Assembly (NCBI GenBank): GCA_023139105.1
Contig: JAGLOF010000089.1
Coordinates: 1,807-65,806 of the forward strand
Direction: 5' to 3'
DNA: 64,000 bases
Origin: a bacterium
GTDB lineage: Bacteria; Zhuqueibacterota; QNDG01; JAGLOF01
This document shows positions 1-19,646 of this stretch, piece by piece. The notes under the pieces are model-generated. The model worked only from the letters and a program-made list of their open reading frames with translations. It made no database searches and was not told the origin of the DNA. Made by a program: the position numbers and the translations under genes. Position 1 is the first letter of the stretch. Each line of letters starts with the position of its first letter.

Positions 1-3000
1 TCCTTATTCGTTGGCTCTTCTTCACTCATGACTGGGGTTGTATTTTCTTCCAGAATTCGGAATAATTCCCGAGTATTAATTGGTTTGGAAATGTAATCAT
101 CCATACCTGCCGCAAGACATTTTTCCCTGTCACCCTGCATTGCATGTGCCGTCATGGCAATAACAGGTATATCCTTATAAGTTGATTCTGATTTTCGAAT
201 TTCACGAGTAGCAATCCAGCCGTCCATCAGCGGCATTTGAATATCCATAAGCACAAGATCATATGATTTCACTTCCAACATCTCCAATGCTTTAATTCCG
301 TTTTCTGCAACATCCACAGAATATCCTTCTCCTTCAAGAATTGCCACGGCCAATTCCTGATTCATTTTATTATCCTCAGCCAACAGGATATGAATGCCAT
401 CAGCCATTTTATTTTTTTTAGTCATTTGTTCAGACCTGCCTTCTTCTTTTTGTTTTCCCTCAAAAACACATTGTACTAATTCCATCAATTCAGTCTGGCG
501 TACAGGTTTCTGTAGAAAACCGTATAGTCCCAACTCAATTTGTCGTCTTTCAGATAAAATTTCTGCAGCTGAGGATATCATGATAATACGCGTCTGGCAA
601 AGCTCAGTATCTCCAACAATATGTTTTGCCAGTGTGAAACCATCCATCTCAGGCATCATTACATCCAGAAGTACTATATCAAAACCATAACCTTCACTCG
701 TTGCCGATTTCATAATTTCATGTGCTTCTGTGCCGTTAACGGCTTCAAGGGTTTCAAATCCCCATGCTTCAGTGAGGCCACGAAGAATCTCACGGTTGGT
801 TGCATTGTCATCAACAATCAACAGTCGTTTCCCGTTTATTCTTTCAAATGATATGGGTGTAATATCTGTATCAGCCTGCTTACCTGGCTTGAAACATGCA
901 GTAAAATGGAATTCACTTCCCTTATTCAGTTCGCTGGTGGCCCACATACTTCCATTCATCATATTACAAATCCGAGTACTGATGGAAAGGCCTAAACCAG
1001 TACCACCGTATTTGCGTGTATGCGAACCATCAGCCTGAGTAAAACTCTTAAAGATATTATCAAGTTTATCAGCCGGAATACCAATTCCGGTATCGGTTAC
1101 TATAAAATGGAGTAATATTTCCTTCTTCCGGTTATTATCTGCTCTTGTATTATCAACAATCATATCTTCAGGGAGCGGCTCAACACTCAGTACTATTTCG
1201 CCAATAGTGGAAAATTTAACTGCATTATTAATCAAATTTATAATAATTTGACGAAGCCTGCCGGGATCTCCTTTTACATAGTGCGGTGTAGCCGGATCAA
1301 TGCGACAGAGTAGTTCCAGTTTTTTCTCAGCAGCCATGGTAAAACAGGAATGCATACCCTCCTCCATGACAGTATAAAGGTTGAAGTCAATCTCTTCCAT
1401 CTCCAGCTTACCGGCTTCAATCTTAGAAAAATCCAGGATATCATTTATTAAACCAAGAAGAGAATCTGCCGAAAATTTTACATTTTCTAAATAGCGTCTC
1501 TGCTTTTGATCCAGTTCTGTTTTCAGTGCCAGGCCAGTCATACCAATTATGGCATTCATAGGAGTTCTGATTTCATGACTCATATTGGCAAGAAATTCAC
1601 TCTTAATTTTATTTGCCTCTTCTGCCTTGACAAAGGCCATGTCTAAATCCAGATTCTTCATTTCCAGTTCATGGGCAAAGGTATCAAGCCGTGCGGCGTT
1701 TTTTTCTGCTTGACGCATTGCTTTCTCCAGATTTGCCAATACTTTTTTATTTTCCGAGATATCACGAATTGTCCCTTCAACATGCACGGGCCGGCCATCC
1801 TCATTATATATCATATGAGAGCTGACAGACACAAAAACAATTTGACCGTTCTTCTTCTTCAATTTCTGTTCATAATTTGCCACTTTACCATTTTTCAGGA
1901 GCAATCTAAAAAGCCTTTTTCGTTGTGAAAGATCAACATATACCTCTTTCACGGAATGCCCAATCAGCTCCTCTGGAGAATAACCTGTCATTATTTTCAC
2001 CGACGGGCTTAATACGGTAATAATTCCATTTATATCTGTTTGATAGTAGAGATCCTGGAAAGATTCAAATATGCTTCTGTATTTTTTTTCACTTTCCTTT
2101 ACATGCTGCTCTACCTTCTCCTTCATGAAAACCTGTGATGCCAGATGAGCAATACTGTTCAGAAATTCATTTATTTCCTGAGATATGGGATGCTTGCTGA
2201 ACAAAGCCAGCACGCCGATACACTGTTGAGAATTGTCTTGTAGTTTGTATCCGGCAAATGAGACCAGTCCCAGTGTAGCAGCCCACTCATGATTGTGTAC
2301 TCTGGGATCAGTAGTGACTTCATTGGTTAAAAAACTATTTACACTACCGGAAGCGATAGTCCCTATTTTGTAACAACCAAACGGCACCCGTTTATGAACC
2401 TCCCCATCGATATGTGTATACCGGCCCGAACTGGCTGTCAGATGCAGACACCTATCCCTAAATCGGCAAACATGTACATCATCAGGAGCCTGGTTATGTA
2501 TGCAGTTCTCGCAGCAGTCGCCGGGATAAATAAGCCATATACGGATAAAATCTGCATGAATCATTTCAACAAGCGTATCTGTTATCAGTTTCATCTTTTC
2601 TTTAACTGAAACCGGAGCCAGAAGCTGCTGCTGCAGATTGTTGGTCATGCTGTTGCGCCTTTCCCGCTCTTTACGTTCGGTGATATCTGTATGTACACCG
2701 ATCAGGTTAATAACAGCCCCTTTATTATCCTTAACAGCATTGGCTCTGAGATGAACGGGGAAACGACTGCCATCCCAGGAAAGCATCTCAATCTCCCCAT
2801 CCCAATTACCTCCGGCCATGAGGATCTTAAATACTTTCCCGGCCATCCGGCTATTGGCCCAGACCGCACTGGGTTGAAGGGTCTTAAAGTCTTCAATCTT
2901 ATAACCGAACATCCGGGTGAAGGTCTCGTTCTGATAGATATGCTGTCCATCTGCAGTAGCAATACCGATGGCGTCGCCGGACGCATCTATAGCCGCTTGA

Positions 3001-4640
3001 ATCTGCATCAAATGCTTGTTGGCTTTCATCGTTTCCGCACGGGCCGCTTCGGTGTCTTCCATCATGCTCAGAAGCATAACTTTATTCTGCTCAAGCGCAC
3101 TCAGATTGTTCTCCCGCTCAATCTCAATCTGTTTAATATCAGTAATATCTATAAAGGTTTCCAGAAGACAGGAACGGCCCTGATATTCAAAGAGTTTGAC
3201 TGACTTCAATACGGGACATTTACTGCCGTCAGACCGGAGCAGGACTCGTTCCGCGTTCTCAGACGACATGCCCTGGTCGGTAATGGGGCAATTGCCTTTT
3301 TGGGCAGGGCAGATAAAATTGTGGCATAGTTTTCCGGTCATGGCTTCCGGGCTGGTCTGCACCATAACAGCCGCAGCAGCATTCACGAATACAATTTCGT
3401 GAGTTACCGCATCAATAATGATCACTCCGGTCTGAATGGCCTCAAAAACATCCTTGAGAGTCCGGGCCTGCCGCTCATCGTTCTCCCGTAACTCAATTAT
3501 GTCCGTTTTAACTACAGTGAGGGTTTCGCCCAATTGACTTAACGGATTACCCGGCGAGATTATGTTCTCGCATACTTCAGGTTCTACTCCTTCCCAGAGC
3601 AAATTACCGCAGAGATTGTTTATTTCATTAATATCCTTCTGGCTTACCGTGATCTCCATCTTCGAGAAATCGTCATTTTCAATTGTTGACTGAATATGTC
3701 TGAAGGCATCTTCAACAGAATCGACAAAAATAAAATGCTGCTTCACGAACGCGGCAAACACCCGCAATGAAGATCTCGTTACCAGGTTTGCCCCACAGAT
3801 ATAGGTGATTCGCGGTTGGCTGTTGTACTTTGTGTTCAGCTCATTAATGGTCTTTGCATAGTATTTTCTGGCTGCCAGTGATGATTTTTTAACACCTGTG
3901 TAATCAGCAATTCGGATAGGAGATGTATCTTTCAAACAACCGGTTTCATAGACATATGTGAGTGTTTCTGCCGCTATTTCCGTATCTGTTATATTAATAT
4001 TGCCCTGCAGGGTTGAAAAAAAGAGTTCCCCCGGAATAACGCCGCTTTTATATCCAAATCCTGTCTCCGGGTTATTATATTCCCACTCAGGTTTGAATTG
4101 AATATTTGTAAAACACAACATTTCCTGTAAAGCAATATTTCTTTTTTTCAGTATATCAAGGGCGGTTGAGACAGCCTGTTTGTACTTTCTGTCAAATGCA
4201 AAAATGATGGAGGTGGGGTAGCTTCTTACTGCGGCTTCGGCTATTATCCGCACCCAGAGTGGAGCACTGCAGAAAAGAAATCCGGCATAACTGTCTTCAT
4301 GGGTCAGTAAATAATCCTTTTGGTTTTTAATGCTACGATTCGATGCTTTTCCCATAAGTTTCGAATAGTCCCTGATTTCAACATATGGTTTTTTTACACC
4401 GGCCTCAGAAACAAATTCCTCAAGCAGTTTATAATGCTGCTTTGCATTAAAGTCAGCCATATCACCCTGATTCCGGACAAACAGAATTGAATCATCAATT
4501 TTTTTAATATTAAAGGTGTAGTTTCCGGTGATTTTTACATCACGAAAGTTTTCAAGTTCCAGGACCGGCAAAAATGTAACCGGACAGGTGTACTCTTTTC
4601 TGCCGTTTATAAATCCTTTTTTAATTTTTTCCTTCTTCAT
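1..4640 (-). CDS. Multidomain hybrid sensor histidine kinase, 3' end beyond window start. N-terminal uncharacterised sensor region, PAS, Cys-rich GAF, PAS, HisKA, HATPase_c, two REC domains.
   Basis: Own minus-strand translation; ORF is absent from the track because it runs off the window edge. Start [10 protein letters not shown] at ATG 4638-4640. H-box [13 protein letters not shown]. HATPase motif [18 protein letters not shown]...[12 protein letters not shown] motifs [14 protein letters not shown]...[14 protein letters not shown] and [14 protein letters not shown]...[17 protein letters not shown] region carries a GDCCENC...CRFRDRC cysteine cluster. Confidence 0.9.
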
Positions 4641-4818
4641 TCCACATCCTGTATTTTTCACAGTTGGGATACGGCGTCTTTATACGTTGCTACAATCCAT
4701 AAAGGACTTTCTCCCTGGAACTTTTTTATGATTTTACATTACTCAACACTCCCGTACCTGGCTTCCCGGTCTAGCTCTTCAAGAATTCCGTTCACCTCTT
4801 TTTTTTTATTTCTTTCCA

Positions 4819-6693
4819 TCATGCTTCAACTGCAGAAGCGGCCAGTTTTAACGGGAATTCAATTCTAAATCCGGTACCATCCATTTCAAGAAGATTCAAT
4901 TTCCCTTTAAGTTGCCTCGTCAGGCCGATAATCAACTCCATCCCCAAAGAATCCTGCTTATATATATCAAAATTTACCGGCAGACCAATTCCATTGTCAC
5001 TGAAAGTGAATCTAACAAGCACATTTTCTGATTTTTCATTTAATCTATTTGATTCTCTTTTAAATTCAATATAAATATTATCTTGAGATGATCTGGAATT
5101 TTTAAATGCATATTTCAGACTATTTGTCATTAGTTCGTTGGCTATTAGCCCAAAGGGAAGTGCAGTATCCAGGGTTAAAGGCAAATTATCAAAATCCATT
5201 TCCAGATGGACTTGGTGCCCCTCACTTTGTGCCGCTGATATAAGGCTCATAACAATTGTTGAGATATACTCTTTAGCTGCGACTGTAGCAAGAGAATTAC
5301 TCCTGTACATATATTCATGTACCGTGGCTATTGTGCGTACCCGGCTTAAAGTCTCCTGAAGAGCAAGTTCAACTTCTTTTAATTTGGTTTGATCAGACTG
5401 CATACTTAATAAACTGACAACTATCTGCAGATTATTCTTTACACGGTGATGCACTTCTTTAAGCAATGTCTCTTTTTCTTTCAAATTTACCTTTATTGCC
5501 TCTTCAGCCTCTTTACGCCCGGTAATATCCCGGTCATATATCAACGCACCGTTAAAACAACCGCCTGCCGTTGTTAATGGTAAACCTTTACGCCATACAG
5601 TTACAATGTTGTCAGCACTGGTGACAATCTGAATTTCTTCTTCAATAGATTCTAGCTGCTGAAGCTCTAAAGTTTTTTCCAAAAAAACAGCAATCGAGGA
5701 TGAATGGATTAAATCAATTATGGGTTTCCCAATCAACCCCTCTTTCGGATACCCATAGAGCTGCTCCCCACTTGGATTAACCTCTATTATTATACCTTTA
5801 GTATCAACAACGAATACACTGTCCGGTGCTGACTCGAATAATAGCCGATAACGGTCTTCACTCTCCCGCAGCTGCCGGGTCCTTTCTTCCAGCAGGTCTT
5901 CTACTCTCAGAAGTGCTCGTTCCCGACGAATTTTTGCGCATAGTTCCACAAGAAATTCCGGAACGAAAGGCTTATGAAGATTCGCAGCTGCCCCTTGGCG
6001 CATCCAGGCCAGTGACAATTCCGGATCATGATCTGTGCTCATCATAATGCAGACACAATTGGGTTGATCATTTTGAAAACCTGCCAGCAGTAAATCGCCT
6101 TTGCCGTCAGGTAAATGGTAATCAATTATACATAGGTCAAATGATACTTCACTAAAAATGTCAGCCGCCTCTTGTACAGAAAAAGCTATATTTACATAAT
6201 AAGCCTGAGCTTCAAATGCCTTTTTCAAAATACTTACAAGAGTTTTACTGTCCTCAACAATGAGCACACTAGGCTGGTCTATAGGTTGCTCTCCTTGAAG
6301 TAATGCCTGCACCTTTTCAATATATTTCCCCCCATCCACAGGGGCAGACAAAAAGGCATTGGCCCCAAGATCCGCAGTAATACGTGAAGCTTCATCACCG
6401 GAAAAAGTAGCCGAGACCACCAGAATGGGAACTTGGTTAAATACTTTATATTCAGGCGAACGCAACAGCCGGCAAAAACGCCAGCCGTCAATATCCGGCA
6501 TGTAGAGATCAGTAATGATTAGATGAGGCGGACTGCTCTTGCCCATCTCTAAAAGGGCCTCAGCCGCATTATCGAAGGTGCGGACATCCAACTCTTCATT
6601 GGCAAGCAGTCCGGCCAGAATTCCCAGTTGAACCGGATTATCGTTAACCACAACAACGGTAATTACAGACTGCCCAGTATGATCGACATTCAT
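4819..6693 (-). CDS. Response regulator/histidine kinase hybrid: REC-REC-PAS-HisKA_2 (HWE-like)-HATPase
   Basis: REC motif ITDLYMPDIDG plus a second REC. HisKA_2 H-box EVHHRVKNNLQIVVSLLSMQ. C-terminal GHKL ATPase motifs (DNGIGLP, GMELI). Confidence 0.9.
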   Translation of the reverse strand: MNVDHTGQSVITVVVVNDNPVQLGILAGLLANEELDVRTFDNAAEALLEMGKSSPPHLIITDLYMPDIDGWRFCRLLRSPEYKVFNQVPILVVSATFSGDEASRITADLGANAFLSAPVDGGKYIEKVQALLQGEQPIDQPSVLIVEDSKTLVSILKKAFEAQAYYVNIAFSVQEAADIFSEVSFDLCIIDYHLPDGKGDLLLAGFQNDQPNCVCIMMSTDHDPELSLAWMRQGAAANLHKPFVPEFLVELCAKIRRERALLRVEDLLEERTRQLRESEDRYRLLFESAPDSVFVVDTKGIIIEVNPSGEQLYGYPKEGLIGKPIIDLIHSSSIAVFLEKTLELQQLESIEEEIQIVTSADNIVTVWRKGLPLTTAGGCFNGALIYDRDITGRKEAEEAIKVNLKEKETLLKEVHHRVKNNLQIVVSLLSMQSDQTKLKEVELALQETLSRVRTIATVHEYMYRSNSLATVAAKEYISTIVMSLISAAQSEGHQVHLEMDFDNLPLTLDTALPFGLIANELMTNSLKYAFKNSRSSQDNIYIEFKRESNRLNEKSENVLVRFTFSDNGIGLPVNFDIYKQDSLGMELIIGLTRQLKGKLNLLEMDGTGFRIEFPLKLAASAVEA

Positions 6694-6795
6694 ATCACTC
6701 TACCTTTACAATATCATTATATGCCAGTGGGAATATAGTTGATATCCACAAATAAAATGATTTAACCTAAAAAAAACCTTTGCATTATTCTTTTT

Positions 6796-8925
6796 CTAAA
6801 TCTCAACTTCGTTCCCTAATCTATTCACTTCTGCCCCTATCACCTTCTCCACCAGTCTCTGCACATCCAGAATCAAAGCCACAGTGCCGTCACCAAGAAT
6901 AGTTGCACCGGAAAGTCCATCAACGTTTCTCATCATCTTGCCCAGAGACTTAATGACAACCTGCTGCTCACCAATAACTTCATCCACTACAAATCCATAC
7001 TTCTCACCCTGCTGATCTGTTATCAGTATCTGTTCAATTGCCGGGGATTCGCCAGTGAGAAGCAATTGATCACGAAGCCGGATATATGGCACGGCCTGAT
7101 CGCGTAAATGGATAAGGTGATGACGCCCATTTTCTTCATTTGCAGATCTTCTCAATTCCACACACTCTTCAACCATGGCCAGTGGGAAAACATAGTAATC
7201 ACCGTCAATACGTGTCAGAAGACCTTCAATAATTCCCAGAGTTAATGGTAATCGAATTGTTATGCGTGTGCCTTTTTTATCCTCGCTCTCCAGTTTAACT
7301 GTACCGCGTAAAGCTTCAATACCCCGTCTGACAACGTCCATACCCACGCCACGGCCTGAAAGATTGGTTACCTTGTCTTTGGTTGAAAAACCTGCATTGA
7401 AAATAAATTGATGAATCTCAAAATCAGACAGTTCCTGATCATCAATAATCAAACCCTGCTTGATTGCCTTTTTACGGATTACCTCTGTATTTAATCCACA
7501 ACCGTCATCTTCAATAATAATTTCTACCTGTGCACCGGCATGACCGGCAGATAGTCTAATGGTTCCTTCTTTTGATTTCTGTGCAAAAAGCCTTGTGGCT
7601 GCAGGTTCAATTCCGTGATCAATACAATTGCGTATTATATGAATTAATGGATCATTAAGCTTCTCTATAACATTTTTATCCAACTCTGTCTCACCTCCAA
7701 TAATTTCCAGCCTGATCTCTTTTCCCTGTGCATGAGAGAGATCACGAATCAGACGCTTAAACTTAGAAAATAATGTTCCGATTGGCACAAGACGCATGTC
7801 CATGGCAGTATCCCTGAGATCATTGGTCAACCTTTCCATTTCCTCACCAAGCAGCAACAGTTCTCCATCAGCAAGAACAGAAACTGTCTGCTGCAATCGG
7901 GCCTGAGCAATAACCAGTTCACCAACAAGATCTACCAGCCTGTCCAGTTTTTCTGAAGCAACCCGAATATTGGAAACAAGAACAGCTTTTTTATTATCAG
8001 TATTCTGTACGGAATCCAATTGTGTTGCAATTTCCGCATTTGCAATTACTACATCATCAACATTCATGTTTGCATTGAATTGGTTATCTATTAGGTTAAT
8101 TGTTTTTTTCAGTTCAGCGTCAGGAATACTGCCTTGATCGAGTAGTAATTCTACAACTTTATCCAAATCAGCACTATCAGCTCCATCAGGCAATTTGGCA
8201 AGTTTTTGAATATGAAGTTCACATTCATCTTCCACAAAAATGAAGACATCCTGAATAGAATTTTCATCTTTCTCTGTAGCTAGCAGAATATCCCAGGCCG
8301 TATAACAAATTTCAGGTACAATATCCAGTAATGATGGTATTTTTTCAGCCCTGGCAATTATTTTAACATTGCCCATAGCAGCCAATTCATTTAATAATAG
8401 CAGTGGATTTGTTCCCATCTGAAAAATTGTTTCAACCGGTTCAAAAAAAATATGAAATAACGCCGCATCTGATATTTTTGAAGTCTGCTGTGTATCAATT
8501 AATTCATTTTGTTTTTTAACAACTGCATTTGCAGGAACGGAATCATAAGCAAGAAAAGCCTTTGTTAATTTTTCAACTGTTTCTACTTCTTCTGAATCAG
8601 CAGGTTTTTCACCTCTATTGAGCATTCGTTCAATCTGATCACGGGCAAGCAGGGTTAAATCGATCAAAGACTGATCAACCAATATTTTACCATCTCTTAC
8701 TTTATCAAGAACTGACTCAATCCCATGAGCAAAAGATTCAATATCAAGAAATCCAAACATACCACCAGAGCCTTTTAGAGTATGCATGGCTCTGAATACC
8801 CGTCCGATAAGATCCATATTGCCGGCATCGGTTTCAAGAGCCAGAAGTGACATCTCAAGTTCTTCAAGCAATTCACGGGCTTCAATGATAAAAGCCTCGC
8901 GCCCCATATCAAATGCAGTACTCAT
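6796..8925 (-). CDS. cheA: Chemotaxis histidine kinase CheA (P1 HPt, dimerisation, HATPase, P5 CheW-like)
   Basis: HPt motif RAMHTLKGSGGMFGF. HATPase G-boxes. C-terminal CheW-like segment (GDYYVFPLAMVEECVEL...GFVVDEVIGEQQVVIKSL). Confidence 0.93.
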   Translation of the reverse strand: MSTAFDMGREAFIIEARELLEELEMSLLALETDAGNMDLIGRVFRAMHTLKGSGGMFGFLDIESFAHGIESVLDKVRDGKILVDQSLIDLTLLARDQIERMLNRGEKPADSEEVETVEKLTKAFLAYDSVPANAVVKKQNELIDTQQTSKISDAALFHIFFEPVETIFQMGTNPLLLLNELAAMGNVKIIARAEKIPSLLDIVPEICYTAWDILLATEKDENSIQDVFIFVEDECELHIQKLAKLPDGADSADLDKVVELLLDQGSIPDAELKKTINLIDNQFNANMNVDDVVIANAEIATQLDSVQNTDNKKAVLVSNIRVASEKLDRLVDLVGELVIAQARLQQTVSVLADGELLLLGEEMERLTNDLRDTAMDMRLVPIGTLFSKFKRLIRDLSHAQGKEIRLEIIGGETELDKNVIEKLNDPLIHIIRNCIDHGIEPAATRLFAQKSKEGTIRLSAGHAGAQVEIIIEDDGCGLNTEVIRKKAIKQGLIIDDQELSDFEIHQFIFNAGFSTKDKVTNLSGRGVGMDVVRRGIEALRGTVKLESEDKKGTRITIRLPLTLGIIEGLLTRIDGDYYVFPLAMVEECVELRRSANEENGRHHLIHLRDQAVPYIRLRDQLLLTGESPAIEQILITDQQGEKYGFVVDEVIGEQQVVIKSLGKMMRNVDGLSGATILGDGTVALILDVQRLVEKVIGAEVNRLGNEVEI

Positions 8926-9287
8926 CCTAACACCTTCTTTACGACTGAGATTAATTGTTCAGGCTTGAAAGGTTTTACAATCCATCCCGTTGCACCAGCT
9001 GCTTTACCCTCCTGCTTCCTTGTGACCTGTGATTCGGTAGTCAGCATGATCAATGGAATAAATTTGAACTGTGTTTTTGAACGAATTTCTTTTATTAAAG
9101 TAATTCCATCCATGCGTGGCATATTTAAATCTATCAGGGCCATATGAACGGTTTCACTTTCTATTTTTTCCAATGCATCAACACCATCCGATGCTTCAAT
9201 GACAACATAACCAGCATCAGCTAATGTAAATTTTACCATTTGTCTAATACTGGGAGAATCATCCACAGTCATTATTGTCTTGCTCAT
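8922..9287 (-). CDS. cheY: CheY-like single-domain response regulator
   Basis: MTVDDSPSIRQMV...ALIDLNMPRMDG...KPF is the REC fold. Start chosen at MSKTIM (ATG 9285-9287), which has an AAGGGG SD 7 nt upstream and an ATGA overlap with the upstream STAS stop. The track start 9314 is an alternative. Confidence 0.85.
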   Translation of the reverse strand: MSKTIMTVDDSPSIRQMVKFTLADAGYVVIEASDGVDALEKIESETVHMALIDLNMPRMDGITLIKEIRSKTQFKFIPLIMLTTESQVTRKQEGKAAGATGWIVKPFKPEQLISVVKKVLG

Positions 9288-9631
9288 GAATTGACCCCTT
9301 TTTTCCAAATACAATCAGCCTCATTAATACCGGATCTACATACACCTGGAAAACCTGCACGTTTTGCTGTATCAAAGAATTCATCAGGTATTTTAATTTT
9401 GATATTCAATGGTTCTTCATTCTCTGTTCTCCTGTGGTTTACAGAACAGAGCAGCTGCAATCCTGCAAGATCTATATGCTCAGCTTTAGATAAGTCCAGA
9501 ATAACTTTCTTTTGATCACCTATTATCTTTTTCATAACATCATGAAAATCGGTTGCATTCTCAATAGTTAAATCCCCTTGAACCACATATATAGATTGTC
9601 TGTTTTTATTATCCACATCACATGAAAACAT
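9284..9631 (-). CDS. STAS-domain (anti-sigma-factor-antagonist-like) protein, apparently without the phosphorylatable serine
   Basis: SpoIIAA-like pattern VVQGDLTIENATDFHDVM...VILDLSKAEHIDLAGLQLL. The position of the usual DSSG phospho-serine reads DLAG. Confidence 0.75.
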   Translation of the reverse strand: MFSCDVDNKNRQSIYVVQGDLTIENATDFHDVMKKIIGDQKKVILDLSKAEHIDLAGLQLLCSVNHRRTENEEPLNIKIKIPDEFFDTAKRAGFPGVCRSGINEADCIWKKGVNS

Positions 9632-9645
9632 GACACCTCCTATAT

Positions 9646-11448
9646 CTAAAACAGTTCAATGTTATCGTCCAGACTGTCATCTCCTTCAGCTACTACAGCA
9701 TCCGTTTCAACAGTTTTCCTTTTTCCCTCACTGCCACTTACCAATAAACGTTCATGATTATCTCTTTCCCCTTGCATTGTATACATAGAAGTGATATTTT
9801 CTATATTTTTCTTATTCAACAAGACATCACCATCATCATATTCCGAATCGTTAATACTGATTTTGTCAAATATTTCAATAACCGGGCCCAGAACCTGTGC
9901 ATATGCATGATGCATATTGACATTAATCACAATATCATCTATCAGACTCTGTAGAGATCCTGATTGATCTTCAAGAACTTTTAATTCACCTTGTCCTGAT
10001 TCAAGAATTGATTTCAGGCTTGTGGCTTTTAAATTTAAATCATCAATAATTTCCTGAATTATATCAACTATACTTACATTAGTTTCCTGCTGTGAATCAT
10101 CAACATTGAGTATTAAACTCATTTCCTTCATTTCACCAATATGTATATCAAGTTCATGCATATCCTTATTGGCTCTATGAGACAACTTCACTACTTCCTG
10201 AACTAAAACGCCCAAAGCAGCACCGTCACTGCCAAGATGCGCCGCTTTTATTATACCGTTCTTGGCTAGTAAATCAATTTCATCATCTATATTGGCGATT
10301 TCAGAAATTGCTAGTTGAACAGCATGAAGTTCACCTGCAACAGGGCTTAACATATTACTGAGCTCTTTATGATTTTCATTTAGAGTTAGAAAGGAATCTA
10401 CAACCAATTGAATATTGGATTGAATTACTTCTATATAGGAATCACTTTTGTCTGATGTATAACTTGCAAAACTGGCAACAGCCAAATACATCTTATTTGC
10501 TTGAATAGCAACTTCTGATAAATTTTGTAAAAGTGTTTCTGTAGCATCTGTTATATTTTTCATTGCAGTATTTAATTGAATTGCCTGCAACTTGAGTAGA
10601 TGCGCATTGCCTTTGCTTATTGCTTGTCCACCATTAACAGAATCACATGTTTCATTCTGCTCTGATTTACATATCTCAAGACTAATGCCCTGCAATACTT
10701 CCACTACATGCTCAATTTGCTGCCGCGTTATATCATGAAACTGTATTGCAGTCACAATACCTGAAACTTCAGAAGATATTGATTGGGAGTGGAGTGAAAT
10801 ATCAGATGCTGAATGTGAACAACTCTCTTGCAGCTGTGAAACCATACTAAGGCAACCCTGTAGACCTTCAATAACACTCTGAGACTGTTGAAATTCCTTC
10901 TCCCTGGTACTTCCCAAGAGCAAAAAACATTCATCAATAATACTAATAAGACCCTTTATTTTTTTCAGGACTTCCGTTACTCTGGACTGAGAAGCCTCTG
11001 CCAGGTTATCAATTTCTATTGACAAAGTCTCAAGGAGCTGCCCCCTGTCACCCAGACGGGCCGTTTCAATACGGATGGAAATTGCATACCTTTTAAGATC
11101 CTTGACATGCTTTTTAAATCTTAATATATAAGGATTTATCATTGCAATGGTTTGAGAAAGTTTCCGGAGATTTTCAATGGTTTTTAGAATTTGACGGTTA
11201 TTATAATCCAGATAACGATCTATCCTGCCAAGCAGATCCTGAAAATCTTCTATTGTGCTATTAATTGTGCCTTCTGTAAAAATCTGAATAAAGTCGGAAG
11301 CGGATGTTGATGTTCTGCGGCTAAAGGACTGTATAGTCTGAAGGTTATTCCCCATTCCTAAAACTTCAATCTCAGTAGTTAAAATGAGGTCAGAAAAATC
11401 TTTACATATTTCTTTAATATTAATGCTGGTACTTTGGGGAGATTTCAT
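9646..11448 (-). CDS. Cytoplasmic MCP-like chemoreceptor homologue (degenerate MCP signalling motifs, no TM segments)
   Basis: Two segments resemble the MCP hairpin-tip consensus (NAAIEAARAGE.GRGFAVVA.EVRKLA): YAISIRIETARLGDRGQLLETLSIEIDNLAEAS and IDLLAKNGIIKAAHLGSDGAALGVLVQEVVKLS. No hydrophobic TM helices. C-terminus ends ...DDNIELF. Confidence 0.6.
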   Translation of the reverse strand: MKSPQSTSINIKEICKDFSDLILTTEIEVLGMGNNLQTIQSFSRRTSTSASDFIQIFTEGTINSTIEDFQDLLGRIDRYLDYNNRQILKTIENLRKLSQTIAMINPYILRFKKHVKDLKRYAISIRIETARLGDRGQLLETLSIEIDNLAEASQSRVTEVLKKIKGLISIIDECFLLLGSTREKEFQQSQSVIEGLQGCLSMVSQLQESCSHSASDISLHSQSISSEVSGIVTAIQFHDITRQQIEHVVEVLQGISLEICKSEQNETCDSVNGGQAISKGNAHLLKLQAIQLNTAMKNITDATETLLQNLSEVAIQANKMYLAVASFASYTSDKSDSYIEVIQSNIQLVVDSFLTLNENHKELSNMLSPVAGELHAVQLAISEIANIDDEIDLLAKNGIIKAAHLGSDGAALGVLVQEVVKLSHRANKDMHELDIHIGEMKEMSLILNVDDSQQETNVSIVDIIQEIIDDLNLKATSLKSILESGQGELKVLEDQSGSLQSLIDDIVINVNMHHAYAQVLGPVIEIFDKISINDSEYDDGDVLLNKKNIENITSMYTMQGERDNHERLLVSGSEGKRKTVETDAVVAEGDDSLDDNIELF

Positions 11449-11937
11449 TAGCCGTATCCAAATTAAATGAATGATTTATATTTTTGAATCAAATGTTATG
11501 CCATTCATCTATAGTGCGTATTAACATTTTAAAAAACAAGTAGTTATACAAATAACATATATTTATAAAAATCAACATCACGTTTGTCAATTTGACACAT
11601 AAAAATTTTAATAGTTAATATTGAACACTTTCATGTCTATTAACCTTTAAAAATATTTTTTAAGGTGTGGACGTTACTGCACTCTTTTGGAGTTGTGAAA
11701 AGAGCAGTGCAGCATATCTCCGGGGATTAACATGGAGATTACATGGAGTGCCAAAGAAGGAGCCAGAACAAATTTTCACGGAATAAAATGGAAGGCAGAT
11801 GTTGCGTTTTCTTTGAAGAATCCGTGTATATAATTGAAAAAAATTACTGTCTATGTGGAGGAGAAAAAAAATATTGCCCTTTCAGGTGATCTACTCTGAA
11901 TTCAAAATATTTCTTATCAATGCTAATATGCAGTATT

Positions 11938-13212
11938 TTATATCTTCTTAAAAAGTTCTTCCAGCTCCTGCCGCAATCCGGCTGACAGGTCTTCTTTCAA
12001 AATTGAAACTATAGAATTCTCCAATTTTTTCAATGTCTTTACCCAATTTTTTTTATAGCCTTTATCCATTAAAGAGTCGTGCCATTTATATATATTTTTA
12101 TAAATTTTATATGATTTTTTAATTGTCTTATATGAGAGTTGTTCTTTGAGAATACTCTTGGCAATTTTATTCTCAGGATAGCTTTTCCCATATTTAGTCA
12201 GAGTCTCTAAAATGCAGATTGTTTTCAAAGGAGATAATTTTATCTCCTTCTCTGCCAATTCTAACATTTGCTTCATCCAAAGTTGTACTGCCTCAGATTC
12301 ATCAGGTATATTAAACTGTGATAAGTTCTGATCAATTAAAAGAGGCCTGTCAAGAGCATTTAATCCTATTTCAAACCAATGTGCATCAGGATAAGCATGA
12401 TCCATACCGGGAACTTCTACGTAAGCGGCCCATTTTTTACCTTCTTCTCTGTATGCTTCCCATACCTTTAATGTCTGAAGCTGATTAAAATCATGACTAC
12501 CGGTTAATAGTGTATAGTGATTTGCATGCCCTTTTATATATAACCCTTCGTTATAATAAGGTAAAAATCCGGTAATATAATGGCCTTCGGAATCCAATAG
12601 CAATTCATCTTTATAGTTACACCCAATAATATAGTAACCCCCTGAGAATAATTCAGGGTATACTATAGCTAATCTACTGGCAATTCTTCCACCACCTGAA
12701 AGTCCAGCTACATATATTCGGTGGAGGTCAATATTATATACATTTTTGATATTATGCAAGGCATCCAAAGAAAGTGCCATGCGTTCGGGAATCCCTCTTT
12801 CATTACCAATATTATTGCCGCCAATCCAAATAAATTTTTGTTTGTCAAGTACTGGCAGATATGCATCCGGAGGTCCGCCTCCTTTAAATGCCGAGATCCA
12901 GATAATTAACCCATACGGTTCAGAACCATGATATTCAGCAGGAACATACGCAGAAAAACTTTCATGTTTCAGATTATAAGGCCTGGGAATTATAAATACT
13001 TCATCTTCTGCCATTTTATCCCATCCATTTCTTTCAATCATGGATGCGGCATTACTCAATGGATGTCTGTCATCTGTATCATAAGTCAGTATCATCCTTC
13101 CGGTATTTATGCTATCACCGATACTATCAGGATGTGTATTGACACTATCAAATGCAGAGCTTGATTTAAAAAATATGATTAACATTACAAAATAAATATT
13201 CTTCATTTTCAT
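11938..13212 (-). CDS. Secreted alpha/beta-hydrolase, PHB-depolymerase-family esterase (GxSxG) with Lys-rich C-terminal extension
   Basis: Signal peptide MKMKNIYFVMLIIFFKSSSA. Nucleophile elbow YVAGLSGGGRIAS typical of the Esterase_PHB family. Confidence 0.75.
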   Translation of the reverse strand: MKMKNIYFVMLIIFFKSSSAFDSVNTHPDSIGDSINTGRMILTYDTDDRHPLSNAASMIERNGWDKMAEDEVFIIPRPYNLKHESFSAYVPAEYHGSEPYGLIIWISAFKGGGPPDAYLPVLDKQKFIWIGGNNIGNERGIPERMALSLDALHNIKNVYNIDLHRIYVAGLSGGGRIASRLAIVYPELFSGGYYIIGCNYKDELLLDSEGHYITGFLPYYNEGLYIKGHANHYTLLTGSHDFNQLQTLKVWEAYREEGKKWAAYVEVPGMDHAYPDAHWFEIGLNALDRPLLIDQNLSQFNIPDESEAVQLWMKQMLELAEKEIKLSPLKTICILETLTKYGKSYPENKIAKSILKEQLSYKTIKKSYKIYKNIYKWHDSLMDKGYKKNWVKTLKKLENSIVSILKEDLSAGLRQELEELFKKI

Positions 13213-13402
13213 CCGCCTCTGTATAATATGGAGTGTAATTCTTTAATTTGCATGCATATCTTTAACAATATTAATTTTCCTGAAAATGATATTAAAGGCT
13301 ATTATTACTCCGACGATAAAAATACCTTGCATAAATATTGAAATTTTACGGCGCAGCAGTGTCAATTCATTCTTGCAGGATTAATAATTCCACTGTATAA
13401 GT

Positions 13403-14278
13403 TTAAATTAAGCCTAGATTAGAAACTATTGCCACCAGAGTAAAAGTTACTCCGAGACTCATGGCAGGAGGATCAATATGTGTGTCACCGTGTATAAGAA
13501 AGAGACATGCAAATAGTTCACAGAGATAGGCAGCTAATACACCAACCACAACGCCCCACAACAAAGATCCCGAAGCCAGAACAGCCAATTCAGCAGATAG
13601 AATAATATGCAATGTAACAGGTATACGCGCTCCAAAATGAAAAAAGAAAAGTGTCATTGCCGAAATACCGAACAATAGTCCGGCAGCTTGTGGCATGCGC
13701 ATCACCACTCCACCGGCCAGTATAGACAGAGCAACAGCGGTGACAAGTACTTGAAGAGTATGTGATGGCCACGGCTGCCACTCTTCAGGCCGGGAGAGAC
13801 GCCAGCGAGATCCACCCTCCGGTACTTTGCCAAAGATGCCGGTCTTTCCAAAAAGGAGCCGGGCTGCAAAACCAATAAACACAATAGACAGACCTATGGT
13901 ATTTGTCCATTCGAGACCATCAAAAATTTTTATTTTTGATAAAATTAAATTAATAATGTATCCGGATAGACCAAAGAGGCCGCCAACAATGAGAATGGAT
14001 GGATTGTTTCCACCGTACAGTGATGCCAGCACATTGCGACCGGAACAGAGAAAACCACGTTTTGCAGCATATGCTGCAGCTCCAAGCCCACCGGCAAAAA
14101 CTACATGTGGCCCCAGAAAGGGCCCCCATGTGATAACTTGCTGATATGTCATGTCTCCGGTTGACATATAGATAACAGTTCCCACAAGGGCAGATAGTCC
14201 ACATAAGCCAAATCCATTAAGCCCACCCAGAGCGGCACCTAGAACGCCACCGGAAAAAGCAATGAGAAAATTCACCAT
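13403..14278 (-). CDS. Gly-rich polytopic membrane protein of unknown function
   Basis: About 8 hydrophobic helices. GC-richer than neighbouring genes. Lies directly downstream of the PKS on the same strand. Confidence 0.6.
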   Translation of the reverse strand: MVNFLIAFSGGVLGAALGGLNGFGLCGLSALVGTVIYMSTGDMTYQQVITWGPFLGPHVVFAGGLGAAAYAAKRGFLCSGRNVLASLYGGNNPSILIVGGLFGLSGYIINLILSKIKIFDGLEWTNTIGLSIVFIGFAARLLFGKTGIFGKVPEGGSRWRLSRPEEWQPWPSHTLQVLVTAVALSILAGGVVMRMPQAAGLLFGISAMTLFFFHFGARIPVTLHIILSAELAVLASGSLLWGVVVGVLAAYLCELFACLFLIHGDTHIDPPAMSLGVTFTLVAIVSNLGLI

Positions 14279-14315
14279 AATATAATCCTGTTTACTGATT
14301 GATGATCAATATCAC

Positions 14316-18818: not shown

Positions 18819-18849
18819 ATCATCCTTAAAGTAATTGATTTATAAAAAT

Positions 18850-19620
18850 TTACATTTTTTTTGTTAAACAACTGCCTATGAATGTTTCTGTATCTAAAAT
18901 GATCAGATTTGAGCTTTGCTCTCCCCCTCTGAAACACAGAGCCGTCTTATAGTTCGGATCGATAGGAAAACATTTAAAATGCACTGATGAATCTATCACG
19001 CCATGAGCCAAAAATTGTATTTCATCTTCACTATTATATATCACAGAAAAATCTTTCAGCGAGTCGCCAAGGCCTTTGCCAGTCATTTTTAAATAACTCT
19101 CTTTCAAAGTCCATAAAGTATAGAAGAATGAGATCTGTCTCTCTTCAGGCAGGGCAAAAAGCCGACTGATCTCCGCATCTGAAAAAAAACGCAGTGCAAT
19201 ATCAATGTCTACCGGATCAATACGCTCTATGTCCGTTCCTACAGCTACATCGGCCAGTGCGCAGACAATCCACATACCCGAGTGGGCAATATTAAAATGT
19301 ATATCCTGTGATGTCTCTACAAAAGGTTTTCCTTCTCTACCTGTTTTAAAACGGATTAATCTAGGTGATATATCAAGTTTTTGACTGATGAGGTAACGGG
19401 CGAGCAGATCACCCAGTAAAGACCTGTGTGCATCCCATGCATTACGATAGCTCAGTATTCTCTCCATTTTAGCTGTTTCACATACAGTCAGCAAACGGGA
19501 AAAAGCATCCTCTTTAAAGAGCGGCGGACAATATAAAGCATAAAGATCTATCATTAAAATCCATCTTAAATAGAACAACCCTCTTGTATTGGACGTTTTT
19601 AATACATAGAGGGTTGCCAA
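18850..19620 (-). CDS. Sfp-type 4'-phosphopantetheinyl transferase
   Basis: Motifs FNIAHSG, VGTDIERI and WTLKESYLKMTGKGL. The true start may be the internal Met MIDLYALY (about 19554). Confidence 0.85.
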   Translation of the reverse strand: MATLYVLKTSNTRGLFYLRWILMIDLYALYCPPLFKEDAFSRLLTVCETAKMERILSYRNAWDAHRSLLGDLLARYLISQKLDISPRLIRFKTGREGKPFVETSQDIHFNIAHSGMWIVCALADVAVGTDIERIDPVDIDIALRFFSDAEISRLFALPEERQISFFYTLWTLKESYLKMTGKGLGDSLKDFSVIYNSEDEIQFLAHGVIDSSVHFKCFPIDPNYKTALCFRGGEQSSNLIILDTETFIGSCLTKKM

Positions 19621-19646
19621 ATTTTTTCATTTTTTAATTATAAAAT

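What the first reader, a model, noticed from the sequence alone, without database searches (positions are those of the whole stretch)
1..11448. Atypical chemosensory-like operon: cytoplasmic MCP-like protein, non-phosphorylatable STAS, CheY, CheA and two multi-REC kinases, with no CheW/CheR/CheB in the window
Six consecutive minus-strand genes form one signalling cassette. The first is a 600-aa protein with no TM segments that carries two degenerate copies of the MCP hairpin-tip motif (positions 10.9-11.1 kb and 10.2-10.4 kb), a QFHDITRQQIEH segment between them, and a C-terminal ...NIELF tail that resembles the NWETF methyltransferase-docking pentapeptide. It is followed by a 115-aa STAS protein in which the usual phospho-serine position reads DLAG. 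Next comes CheY, whose start overlaps the STAS stop as ATGA, then a full CheA with its own P5 CheW-like domain. Then come a REC-REC-PAS-HisKA_2 kinase and a giant PAS/Cys-rich-GAF/PAS hybrid kinase with two REC domains. No CheW, CheR, CheB or GHKL anti-sigma kinase is present, so the STAS protein and the downstream kinases are the likely outputs of a CheA-based, non-motility phosphorelay. Chemotaxis clusters with STAS partner-switch proteins exist in some bacteria, but I do not recognise this combination with an MCP-like protein bearing a duplicated signalling motif and two hybrid kinases.
Basis: partly seen in the sequence, partly recalled or inferred. Interest (0 to 1): 0.72.

Follow-up and report, generated by a model that had tools for sequence, protein, structure and literature searches.

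The report
Single-chain twin-hairpin chemoreceptor gene cluster
The six genes are the front end of a complete chemotaxis-type signalling cluster: the "missing" CheW, CheR, CheB and CheD lie just past the window edge. Its first gene encodes a widespread soluble receptor-like protein, not described in the literature I could search, that packs two receptor hairpins into one chain and carries an invariant motif resembling the active site of the CheY phosphatase CheZ.

Summary
The central inference, a CheA relay without CheW/CheR/CheB, is a window-edge artefact. On the source contig the same strand continues with a porin-like gene, a dCache MCP, CheW, CheR, CheB, a small kinase, CheD and more hybrid kinases.

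The conserved unit is a four-gene module: MCP-like protein, STAS, CheY, CheA. It occurs in at least 57 of 67 informative related loci from Geobacter relatives, Syntrophobacteraceae, Syntrophorhabdus, Ignavibacteria, Synergistia and others, usually with CheR/CheD/CheB and an MCP plus CheW nearby.

By gene position the STAS protein parallels CheS of alpha-proteobacteria. It is therefore more likely a CheA/CheY accessory than an output.

Phosphatase activity of the motif is inferred, not shown. Verdict: a new variant of a known kind, of moderate interest.

The parts
9646..11448 (-). MCP-like protein (MCPL), 600 aa. Soluble and sensor-less. A tandem duplication of a whole MCP signalling hairpin, predicted to fold as a single-chain four-helix bundle.
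10999..11106 (-). First hairpin-tip motif (aa 115-150, ...ISIRIETARLGDRGQ...). The family consensus is ISTKIESARLGE...GF..LA.DVEKLS.
   Evidence: E128 and F139 are about 99-100% conserved in the family.
10708..10743 (-). QFHDITRQQIEH motif (aa 236-247). The family core is Q-x-H-D-x-x-R-Q-Q-x-E-H. D239 and Q243 align with the catalytic D143 and Q147 of E. coli CheZ, and H-D-x-x-x-Q equals the HisKA_3 H-box pattern.
   Evidence: The role of DxxxQ is described in PMC3510030.
10174..10287 (-). Second hairpin-tip motif (aa 388-425, ...LLAKNGIIKAAHLGSDGAALGVLVQEVVKLS...).
   Evidence: The DSSP break at residue 405 marks the turn.
9754..9783 (-). YTMQGERDNH (aa 556-565). This is the family motif Y-T-M-x-S-E-R-x-x-H, of unknown role.
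   Evidence: Y556, M558, E561 and R562 are invariant and H565 is 98% conserved.
9649..9663 (-). C-terminal NIELF peptide after a low-confidence linker. The family pattern is N-[VIF]-[ED]-L-F at the extreme C-terminus.
   Evidence: About 98% of 259 family members end this way. pLDDT is below 50 for residues 573-589, followed by a short helix at 593-599.
9284..9631 (-). STAS-only protein, 115 aa. Its position is the same as that of CheS. The canonical phospho-Ser position is Ala, and there are three conserved Cys.
   Evidence: Pfam STAS and STAS_2. Family alignment of 71 sequences. Conserved gene order.
8922..9287 (-). Single-domain response regulator (CheY-like), 121 aa, translationally coupled to STAS and CheA through ATGA overlaps.
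6796..8925 (-). CheA, 709 aa (Hpt, dimerisation, HATPase, P5/CheW-like domains).
   Evidence: NCBIfam CheA model aligned over residues 11-691.
4819..6693 (-). REC-REC-PAS-HisKA_2-HATPase kinase, 624 aa.
1..4640 (-). Hybrid kinase, 1667 aa in full, cut by the window edge. It has an unassigned N-terminal region of about 380 aa, three PAS domains, HisKA, HATPase and two REC domains.
11449..11937 (-). AT-rich 489-nt upstream intergenic region, the likely promoter region of the cluster. It contains a weak sigma-54-like TGGCAT-N5-TTGA at 11503-11489.
   Evidence: No Rfam match. The promoter assignment is inferred.

Best explanation
The region is the 5' part of one large, complete chemosensory (Che-type) gene cluster. 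Its conserved core is a four-gene module: MCPL, STAS, CheY, CheA.

MCPL is a soluble, sensor-less protein. Two homologous MCP signalling hairpins are fused in one chain and pack side by side into one long four-helix bundle, so a single chain mimics a receptor homodimer with two non-identical tips.

Inferred steps:
1. MCPL joins the receptor/CheW/CheA array built by the cluster's transmembrane dCache MCP and acts as a scaffold rather than as a sensor that adapts by methylation.
2. Its flexible C-terminal NIELF peptide tethers a partner, either CheR/CheB or CheY.
3. Its invariant H-D-x-x-R-Q face works like the DxxxQ site of CheZ and HisKA_3 kinases to speed hydrolysis of CheY~P at the array.
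4. The STAS protein acts like CheS, binding CheA and tuning CheY phosphotransfer and dephosphorylation.
5. The REC domains of the neighbouring kinases may draw phosphoryl groups from CheA as additional outputs.
For: Complete cluster. The source contig continues on the same strand with BBP2, dCache-HAMP-MCP, CheW, CheR, CheB, a HisKA-HATPase kinase, CheD and further hybrid kinases.

Conserved module. MCPL-STAS-REC-CheA is found in at least 57 of 67 GTDB loci that have enough downstream DNA. Of 43 core loci with at least 7 kb downstream, 38 carry CheR, 27 CheB, 28 CheW, 31 an MCP and 26 CheD.

MCP homology and duplication.

Side-by-side packing:
- The AF2 model has pLDDT 85 and pTM 0.63.
- After bias correction, the top-ranked covariation offsets out of about 200 fall at 267 (expected 270), 541 (expected 544) and 543 (expected 542).

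Scaffold rather than adapting receptor: no conserved methylation consensus in MCPL.

Motif:
- 94% of 345 family sequences carry HDxxRQ.
- hhalign places D239 and Q243 on CheZ D143 and Q147, with F, I/L, T and I also matching.
- 15 of 30 members hit Pfam CheZ (best E=1.3e-6). The next non-MCP family is hit by 8 of 30.
- DxxxQ is the phosphatase motif of CheZ and of HisKA_3 kinases, where it sits next to the His (PMC3510030).
- The HisKA_3 kinase in this same window reads LHDEAGQ.
- Geobacter genomes, which carry this module, lack cheZ (PMC2577667).

Tail: conserved in about 98% of members after a disordered linker. The cluster's own MCPs end in xEFE[KT][FY].

CheS analogy: PMC12654446, PMC4214558.
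Against: - Homology to CheZ is not established. Pfam gives 17.1 bits against a 30.7 cut-off, hhalign probability is 0.85% (E=0.065), and the profile search of PDB sequences finds no CheZ.
- The heptad register around the motif is ambiguous. H238 could be buried in the core.
- The covariation signal is weak. Neff is 71-163, one shuffle reached 3.2 against the observed 3.5, and the highest single DCA pairs were gap artefacts.
- An AF2 monomer prediction cannot exclude a domain-swapped antiparallel dimer, which would be an extended rod.
- Position 2 of the tail is V or I, not the aromatic residue of canonical CheR-binding pentapeptides.
- No binding or activity was measured for any step.
Confidence: 0.55

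Rival explanations
1. This is a self-contained, non-motility CheA phosphorelay that works without CheW, CheR and CheB, with the STAS protein and the two multi-REC kinases as its outputs.
For: No CheW, CheR, CheB or CheD lies inside the window. Two multi-REC kinases sit directly downstream of cheA. A few related loci show only the four core genes: L036, L041, L050 and L062.
Against: MCP, CheW, CheR, CheB and CheD follow on the same strand within about 8 kb of the window edge. Most related loci carry them too. No anti-sigma kinase or PP2C partner for STAS was found in about 36 kb of the contig. The kinases between cheA and the MCP gene are not conserved across loci.
Confidence: 0.1
2. MCPL is a true cytoplasmic sensor. 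The invariant polar residues (E26, H238, D239, E246, H247, H513, E561, H565) form a metal- or cofactor-binding site inside the four-helix bundle, about 100-110 residues from the tips. Occupancy of that site controls CheA.
Confidence: 0.2
3. MCPL is a purely structural DosM-type scaffold of a double-layered cytoplasmic array (F9-like). The conserved motifs are docking sites for STAS or CheA, with no catalysis.
For: It has two tandem signalling domains and no sensor, like DosM (PMC7534058, PMC9321776). Two hairpins of about 125 residues placed end to end would span roughly 37 nm, close to the 35-nm F9 array. Covariation cannot tell intra-chain from inter-chain hairpin pairing.
Confidence: 0.15
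4. The Q243-Q244 pair is a CheD/CheB deamidation and CheR methylation site. MCPL would then be an adapting receptor with one unusual modification site.
For: Q243-Q244 is the only conserved [EQ][EQ] pair in the family. CheD, CheR and CheB are frequent neighbours, and in Geomonas-type loci no other MCP gene was detected in the locus.
Against: The flanking residues (D-I-T-R / I-E-H-V) do not fit the [ASTG][ASTG]xx[EQ][EQ]xx[ASTG][ASTG] consensus. Q244 is R or K in 21% of members.
Confidence: 0.07

Closest known systems
DosM (VC1403), the double-signalling-domain receptor of F9 chemosensory systems
   Same: A soluble protein made of two MCP signalling domains in tandem, with no sensor domain, encoded in a che cluster and thought to act as an array scaffold (PMC7534058, PMC9321776).
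   Different: DosM genes sit next to a triple-CheW gene in the order DosM-W3-B-.-R-Y-A, and none of the 72 listed species is a Geobacter relative. Here the order is MCPL-STAS-CheY-CheA and there is no CheW3. [quoted passage not shown] The sequence relationship to DosM could not be tested because no DosM sequence was available.
CheZ, the CheY~P phosphatase
   Same: A long helical-hairpin four-helix bundle carrying F-x-D-[LI]-T-x-Q-x-I with the catalytic Asp and Gln, followed by a disordered linker and a short acidic C-terminal peptide ending in Phe (CheZ architecture from the literature, for example PMC7750401 and PMC3510030). Half of the family members give sub-threshold Pfam CheZ hits.
   Different: There is no significant global homology. 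The His before the Asp and the Arg before the Gln are invariant here but not in CheZ. The bundle here is MCP-derived and three times larger. Activity is untested.
The icpA-cheS-cheY1-cheA operon head of Sinorhizobium and Agrobacterium
   Same: The same gene order: cytoplasmic receptor gene, small STAS-only gene, cheY, cheA. CheS binds CheA, raises CheY1 binding about 100-fold and speeds signal termination (PMC12654446, PMC4214558).
   Different: The Agrobacterium counterpart of IcpA, MCP514 (Atu0514), is a protoglobin-HAMP-36H receptor with one signalling domain (PMC8466855) and is not of the MCPL family. The STAS proteins here carry a C-terminal Cys-x8-9-Cys-I-W-x-G-G extension. Sequence relatedness to CheS was not tested.
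Geobacter 'E. coli-like Type 2' and 'alpha-group' che clusters (Tran et al. 2008), probably class F8
   Same: These are clusters with CheD, MCPs that end in NWETF-like pentapeptides, no cheZ, and several ORFs of unknown function. The alpha-group has cheA/R/B plus an HD-type protein and 'no mcp' (PMC2577667). Geomonas loci here read MCPL-STAS-CheY-CheA-CheR-CheD-CheB-EAL/HDOD. Class F8 is listed with auxiliary CheD and 34H receptors.
   Different: That paper did not recognise the MCPL and STAS genes. Equating its clusters with these loci is my inference from gene content. The heptad class and CheA phylogeny could not be tested. The window's version has two multi-REC kinases and a porin-like gene inserted between cheA and the MCP gene.
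HisKA_3 DHp domains (NarX, DesK)
   Same: An H-D-x-x-x-Q motif on a helix of a four-helix bundle, where D and Q are needed for phosphatase activity towards the cognate response regulator (PMC3510030). The HisKA_3 kinase in this window reads LHDEAGQ.
   Different: No Pfam HisKA_3 match at E<=0.1 in any of the 30 members scanned, and no ATPase domain in MCPL.
NWETF-type C-terminal pentapeptide of high-abundance MCPs
   Same: Located at the extreme C-terminus after a flexible linker, with Asn/acidic-x-Glu-x-Phe spacing. The canonical MCP of the same cluster ends in DNEFETF.
   Different: Position 2 is Val or Ile rather than Trp or Phe, so canonical CheR/CheB binding is doubtful. The partner is unknown.

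Membership tests
MCP signalling domain (Pfam PF00015) | Profile score at or above the curated cut-off | tested here: met
   36.9 bits against a 34.6 cut-off for the window protein. 30 of 30 family members match, best E=5e-19. The family profile matches 2CH7 at E=2e-21.
MCP signalling domain (Pfam PF00015) | Hairpin-tip consensus (..LALNAAIEAARAGE.GRGFAVVA.EVR.LA..) | tested here: met
   Two copies. Tip 1 keeps IE-AR-G-E...GF, and tip 2 keeps LIALNA-IKAA..G..GA.LGVLAEAI..LS.
MCP signalling domain (Pfam PF00015) | Conserved methylation consensus [ASTG][ASTG]xx[EQ][EQ]xx[ASTG][ASTG] | tested here: not met
   No column holds the consensus in more than 9 of 288 sequences.
DosM / F9 chemosensory class | Two MCP signalling domains in tandem, no sensor domain | tested here: met
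   hhalign of N-half against C-half gives 97.4% probability. No other Pfam domain was found.
DosM / F9 chemosensory class | Adjacent triple-CheW (CheW3) gene and gene order DosM-W3-B..R-Y-A | tested here: not met
   The window genome has a single-domain CheW of 191 aa. In 80 related loci none of the CheW-labelled ORFs exceeded 313 aa, and the one checked by Pfam (L047, 313 aa) is CheW-REC, that is CheV. F9 gene orders are listed.
DosM / F9 chemosensory class | Extended rod bridging two CheA/CheW baseplates | not testable with these tools
CheZ (Pfam PF04344 / NCBIfam NF041271) | Profile score at or above the curated cut-off | tested here: not met
   17.1 bits against 30.7, and 18.3 bits against 350. 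hhalign probability is 0.85%. 15 of 30 members give sub-threshold hits.
CheZ (Pfam PF04344 / NCBIfam NF041271) | Catalytic D-x-x-x-Q on a bundle helix | tested here: met
   D239 and Q243 align with CheZ D143 and Q147. Both are invariant in the unfiltered 101-sequence alignment, and 94% of 345 collected family sequences carry HDxxRQ.
CheZ (Pfam PF04344 / NCBIfam NF041271) | CheY~P phosphatase activity and a C-terminal CheY-binding peptide | not testable with these tools
   A conserved C-terminal peptide is present, but its partner is unknown.
CheS-type STAS accessory protein | Small STAS-only protein encoded between a receptor gene and cheY-cheA | tested here: met
   Pfam STAS. The order is conserved in at least 57 of 67 loci. 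The CheS description is in PMC12654446.
CheS-type STAS accessory protein | Binds CheA and enhances CheY binding and dephosphorylation; sequence relationship to S. meliloti CheS | not tested
   No CheS sequence or binding assay was available. The Dogra et al. 2012 paper is not held.
SpoIIAA-type anti-sigma-factor antagonist (partner switch) | Phosphorylatable Ser/Thr in the D-x-S-G motif | tested here: not met
   Ala in the window. Across the family the position is T in 32, S in 20 and A in 13 sequences, so phosphorylation cannot be a general requirement.
SpoIIAA-type anti-sigma-factor antagonist (partner switch) | Neighbouring GHKL anti-sigma kinase or PP2C phosphatase | tested here: not met
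   None among the called genes over about 36 kb of the contig.
F8 class / Geobacter Type 2 che cluster | CheD present and cluster MCPs carrying pentapeptide tails | tested here: met
   CheD is at L087 13469-13948. The dCache MCP ends in DNEFETF. Class features are listed and in PMC2577667.
F8 class / Geobacter Type 2 che cluster | 34H receptor class and CheA phylogenetic placement | not testable with these tools
   No heptad-class models or classified reference CheA sequences were available.
HisKA_3 DHp domain | H-D-x-x-x-Q H-box together with a Pfam PF07730 match | tested here: inconclusive
   The pattern is present, but no PF07730 hit at E<=0.1 in the 30 members scanned.
NWETF-type CheR/CheB docking pentapeptide | Aromatic residues at positions 2 and 5 at the extreme C-terminus after a flexible linker | tested here: not met
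   Position 5 is Phe in 99% of sequences. Position 2 is V in 86%, I in 10% and F in only 3%.

The most novel reading that the evidence does not exclude
MCPL is a new kind of array component. It would be a single-chain mimic of a chemoreceptor dimer that is itself the CheY~P phosphatase, using a CheZ/HisKA_3-type DxxxQ site built into the receptor bundle and fed by a C-terminal tether peptide. That would explain signal termination in Geobacter relatives, which lack cheZ, and possibly in the other anaerobic lineages that carry this module (their cheZ content was not examined).
Probability: 0.25. Interest if true: 0.75.

Novelty: new variant of a known kind. Interest (0 to 1): 0.48.

Why it matters
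Chemosensory arrays are normally built from receptor homodimers, and CheY~P phosphatases are separate proteins. A family of about 2,400 protein clusters may fuse two receptor hairpins into one asymmetric pseudo-dimer and may carry a phosphatase-type motif. If so, signal termination could be built into the receptor lattice itself. It would also assign a role to the unknown ORFs seen in Geobacter-type che clusters since 2008.

The finding is directly testable: a phosphatase assay with D239A and Q243A mutants, peptide-binding assays and tomography would settle it.

For genome annotation, the practical lesson is that the operon's apparent lack of CheW/CheR/CheB came from where the window was cut.

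Tried and rejected
1. F9/DosM membership was rejected on gene order and the absence of CheW3.
2. IcpA/MCP514 as a homologue of MCPL was rejected, because MCP514 is a protoglobin-HAMP-36H receptor.
3. True CheZ homology is not supported by hhalign or by the profile search of PDB sequences.
5. Full 21-state DCA timed out. Reduced-alphabet DCA gave top pairs that were gap-block artefacts, including an apparent contact between the C-terminal helix and H3, which I discard.
6. tblastn against plasmids found no family member with an annotated context.
7. A literature search for the motif string found nothing. Wuichet & Zhulin 2010, Briegel 2016 and Dogra 2012 are not held.
8. The afdb50 fold library was unavailable. 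Foldseek against PDB was uninformative.
9. No Rfam element lies in or around the cassette. Promoter and terminator scans were not above shuffles.
10. A conserved canonical methylation site in MCPL was searched for and not found.

Full report
OBSERVATION

- The MCP-like protein (MCPL, 9646-11448) passes the Pfam MCPsignal cut-off narrowly, at 36.9 bits against 34.6, with two matched stretches. It also gives weak CheZ hits (Pfam E=0.005, NCBIfam E=0.0013).
- STAS (9284-9631), a 121-aa CheY (8922-9287) and CheA (6796-8925) are translationally coupled through two ATGA overlaps.
- A REC-REC-PAS-HisKA_2 kinase (4819-6693) and a hybrid kinase starting at 4640 follow, after gaps of 102 and 178 nt.
- No terminator-like site lies between the genes, and promoter-like matches are not above the shuffles.
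- No Rfam element is present.

No CheW, CheR, CheB or CheD homologue is detectable anywhere in the 64-kb window.

CONTEXT BEYOND THE WINDOW

The window comes from NCBI MAG GCA_030635125.1, contig DAOVZL010000011.1. Walking along the contig shows that the same strand continues past window position 1 with, in order:

- the last 121 aa of the hybrid kinase
- a BBP2 porin-like gene
- a dCache-HAMP MCP of 706 aa
- CheW (191 aa), CheR (298 aa) and CheB (356 aa)
- a sensorless HisKA-HATPase kinase (291 aa)
- CheD (159 aa)
- a REC...Hpt hybrid kinase, a single REC protein and two more REC kinases

THE MODULE IS WIDESPREAD

MCPL has only distant relatives, at most 28% identical. They form a coherent family of proteins about 600 aa long.

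- A profile of 30 members finds 2,422 cluster representatives (50% identity) at E<=1e-30.
They come from Geobacter, Geomonas, Trichlorobacter and Geotalea, from Syntrophobacteraceae and Syntrophorhabdus, and from Ignavibacteria, Melioribacteraceae, Synergistia, Nitrospirota and Vulcanimicrobiota.
- Of 67 loci with enough downstream DNA, at least 57 show MCPL-STAS-REC-CheA in that order. Of 43 such loci with at least 7 kb downstream, 38 hold CheR, 27 CheB, 28 CheW, 31 a canonical MCP and 26 CheD (spot-checked with Pfam).
- The small kinase next to cheD, directly after cheB or one gene further on, also recurs in Geobacter loci.

The two multi-REC kinases placed between cheA and the MCP gene are specific to this genome.

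These loci fit what Tran et al. 2008 called Geobacter 'Type 2 E. coli-like' clusters: CheD, pentapeptide-bearing 34H MCPs, no cheZ, and many ORFs of unknown function. They also fit their 'alpha-group', which has cheA/R/B plus an HD-type protein and 'no mcp'. For comparison, Geomonas L012 reads MCPL-STAS-CheY-CheA-CheR-CheD-CheB-EAL/HDOD. Class F8 is listed with auxiliary CheD and 34H receptors. Equating these is my inference. The class could not be assigned with the tools available.

WHAT MCPL IS

The family profile matches the T. maritima receptor 2CH7 over its whole cytoplasmic domain (E=2e-21), using profile positions 311-566. The N-terminal half aligns end to end with the C-terminal half (hhalign probability 97.4%, E=1.2e-11). 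The protein is therefore a tandem duplication of a complete signalling hairpin with arms of about 125 residues. It has no sensor, HAMP or transmembrane segment.

Fold:
- AlphaFold2 with 101 sequences gives pLDDT 85 and pTM 0.63, all helical.
- The DSSP string breaks at the second tip (residue 405) but not at the first (about 133-137).
- The DSSP break at residues 59-60 is the homologue of a low-confidence spot at 331-340 in the second repeat. I read it as a kink, not a turn.

Covariation:
- Covariation is weak (Neff 71-163) but points the same way.
- After correction with shuffles, the best of about 200 offsets is 267 for helix 1 against helix 2 (expected 270), 541 for helix 2 against helix 3 (expected 544) and 543 for helix 1 against helix 4 (expected 542).
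- Three of the seven helix-pair tests put their top-ranked offset within 4 residues of the prediction. I estimate the chance of that at roughly 0.003.
- One shuffle came close for helix 1 against helix 2.
- The highest individual DCA pairs were gap artefacts, and I discard them.

I conclude that the two hairpins pair with each other, tips at the same end, so one chain mimics a receptor dimer. A domain-swapped antiparallel dimer, which would be an extended rod, cannot be excluded.

CONSERVED SITES IN MCPL

- The motif Q-x-H-D-x-x-R-Q-Q-x-E-H. HDxxRQ occurs in 94% of 345 collected sequences, and Q236, H238, D239, Q243 and H247 are invariant in unfiltered alignments.
- E26 in an N-terminal TExEFL motif, Y-T-M-x-S-E-R-x-x-H near the C-terminus, and N-[VIF]-[ED]-L-F as the last five residues in about 98% of members.
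- The two tips keep complementary subsets of the canonical tip residues. Tip 1 keeps E128, R131 and F139. Tip 2 keeps N397.
- No canonical methylation consensus is conserved.

THE MOTIF

hhalign against E. coli CheZ (sequence entered from memory) aligns only 34 columns and is not significant (E=0.065). It does, however, place D239 and Q243 on the catalytic D143 and Q147, and it matches F, L/I, T and I around them. Half of 30 members hit Pfam CheZ below threshold (best E=1.3e-6). The next non-MCP family is hit by 8 members.

DxxxQ is the phosphatase motif of CheZ, and of HisKA_3 kinases, where it directly follows the phospho-accepting His (PMC3510030). The HisKA_3 kinase in this window reads LHDEAGQ.

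The overall architecture also parallels CheZ: a helical bundle with DxxxQ, then a disordered linker (pLDDT below 50 at 573-589), then a short acidic C-terminal helix ending in Phe.

Against this reading:
- The heptad register shifts at the motif, so H238 might be buried.
- Several invariant His, Asp and Glu residues lie at one level of the bundle, which would also suit a metal or cofactor site.
- The Q243-Q244 pair could in principle be a CheD/CheB/CheR target, although its flanks do not fit the consensus.

THE TAIL

The cluster's canonical MCPs carry their own pentapeptides, xEFE[KT][FY]. The window genome's dCache MCP ends in DNEFETF. MCPL's NIELF shares the x-hydrophobic-E-x-F spacing but lacks the aromatic residue at position 2.

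The tail is kept in loci without CheR or CheB nearby and in orphan MCPL genes. It is even duplicated in one Vulcanimicrobiota protein. Its partner is open: CheR/CheB, CheY or something else.

THE STAS PROTEIN

The canonical phospho-Ser position is Ala in the window and T, S or A across the family. No GHKL anti-sigma kinase or PP2C gene is nearby.

The gene order receptor-STAS-cheY-cheA is that of icpA-cheS-cheY1-cheA in Sinorhizobium and Agrobacterium. There CheS is a STAS-only protein that binds CheA, raises CheY1 binding about 100-fold and speeds signal termination (PMC12654446, PMC4214558). Agrobacterium MCP514, the counterpart of IcpA in that operon, is an ordinary protoglobin-HAMP-36H receptor and not an MCPL relative (PMC8466855).

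The STAS proteins of this module carry three conserved Cys and a C-I-W-x-G-G end, which remains unexplained.

COMPARISON WITH KNOWN SYSTEMS

The closest architectural precedent is DosM of F9 systems, which has two tandem signalling domains, no sensor and a scaffold role. F9 is defined by an adjacent triple-CheW gene and the order DosM-W3-B..R-Y-A, and it is not listed in Geobacter relatives. Neither hallmark is present here. DosM is modelled as an extended rod rather than a side-by-side bundle.

In the papers I could search, I found no description of the MCPL family, its motif or its tail. Key subscription papers were not available.

VERDICT

The interpretation as a CheW/R/B-less relay with STAS and kinase outputs is not supported.

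What remains is a complete chemosensory cluster of a widespread, poorly characterised type. Its signature protein is a single-chain twin-hairpin receptor mimic with a candidate built-in DxxxQ phosphatase site.

- Shown: cluster completeness, conservation of the module, the internal duplication and the conservation of the motifs.
- Supported by prediction: the side-by-side fold.
- Inferred only: array membership, phosphatase activity, the tail's partner, a CheS-like role for STAS, and phosphotransfer to the neighbouring kinases.

Noticed in passing
window 9284-9631 (minus strand); 71 related loci: The STAS proteins of this module share three conserved cysteines (C62, C98, C107) and a C-terminal C-[IL]-W-x-G-G motif. 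This may be a metal or redox site.
   Followed up: partly
window 3500-4640 (minus strand): The first 380 or so residues of the 1667-aa hybrid kinase match no Pfam or NCBIfam family.
   Followed up: partly
L087 12592-13467; also L047, L049, L069, L074, L080: A sensorless HisKA-HATPase kinase of about 291-299 aa lies next to cheD, directly after cheB or one gene further on (cheB-kinase-cheD in this genome). It occurs both here and in Geobacter-type loci, so it is probably a conserved but unexplained part of this cluster type.
   Followed up: partly
L004 17354-17959 and many other loci (L006, L009, L013, L042, L046, L081, L085): Short CheR-like proteins of 201-205 aa, with the SAM-binding domain only and no CheR_N domain, lie a short distance downstream of cheA in one sub-group of loci, in several cases as the next che-related gene.
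   Followed up: no
L062 (Vulcanimicrobiota MAG), MCPL C-terminus: The conserved tail occurs twice in tandem (...GDNVELFEENKKDKEEDLGDNVELF).
   Followed up: no
L087 7808-9928 and the cluster MCPs of about 30 loci: The canonical MCPs of these clusters end in a conserved xEFE[KT][FY] pentapeptide. The dCache MCP of this genome ends in DNEFETF.
   Followed up: yes
window 11489-11503 (minus strand): A weak sigma-54-like element, TGGCAT-N5-TTGA, lies about 41 nt upstream of the MCPL start codon in the 489-nt AT-rich intergenic region.
   Followed up: no
window 9646-11448: The window's MCPL is an outlier. No protein in the 5.8-billion-sequence database exceeds 28% identity to it, while the CheW of the same cluster has relatives at 73-74%. 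Its first tip is also more degenerate than the family consensus, for example F139 is replaced by L.
   Followed up: partly
window 11938-22523 and 23186-62457: The neighbouring genes are unrelated to signalling. They include an esterase-like secreted protein, DUF7973, a 1500-aa PKS with a phosphopantetheinyl transferase, an S9 peptidase, an aldehyde dehydrogenase, an RND efflux pump, a MacB-type permease, a HisKA_3 kinase and 2-oxoacid:ferredoxin oxidoreductases. Among the ORFs examined by Pfam no flagellar gene was found, but most ORFs beyond 23 kb were not scanned.
   Followed up: partly
L003 15659-21872 (Geotalea uraniireducens AP027151.1): In this isolate a Mu-like prophage (Mu transposase, Gp27, CI-like repressor) is inserted just downstream of cheA. 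It truncates the PAS/HisKA_3 kinase gene that is intact in related metagenome contigs (L004, L005).
   Followed up: no
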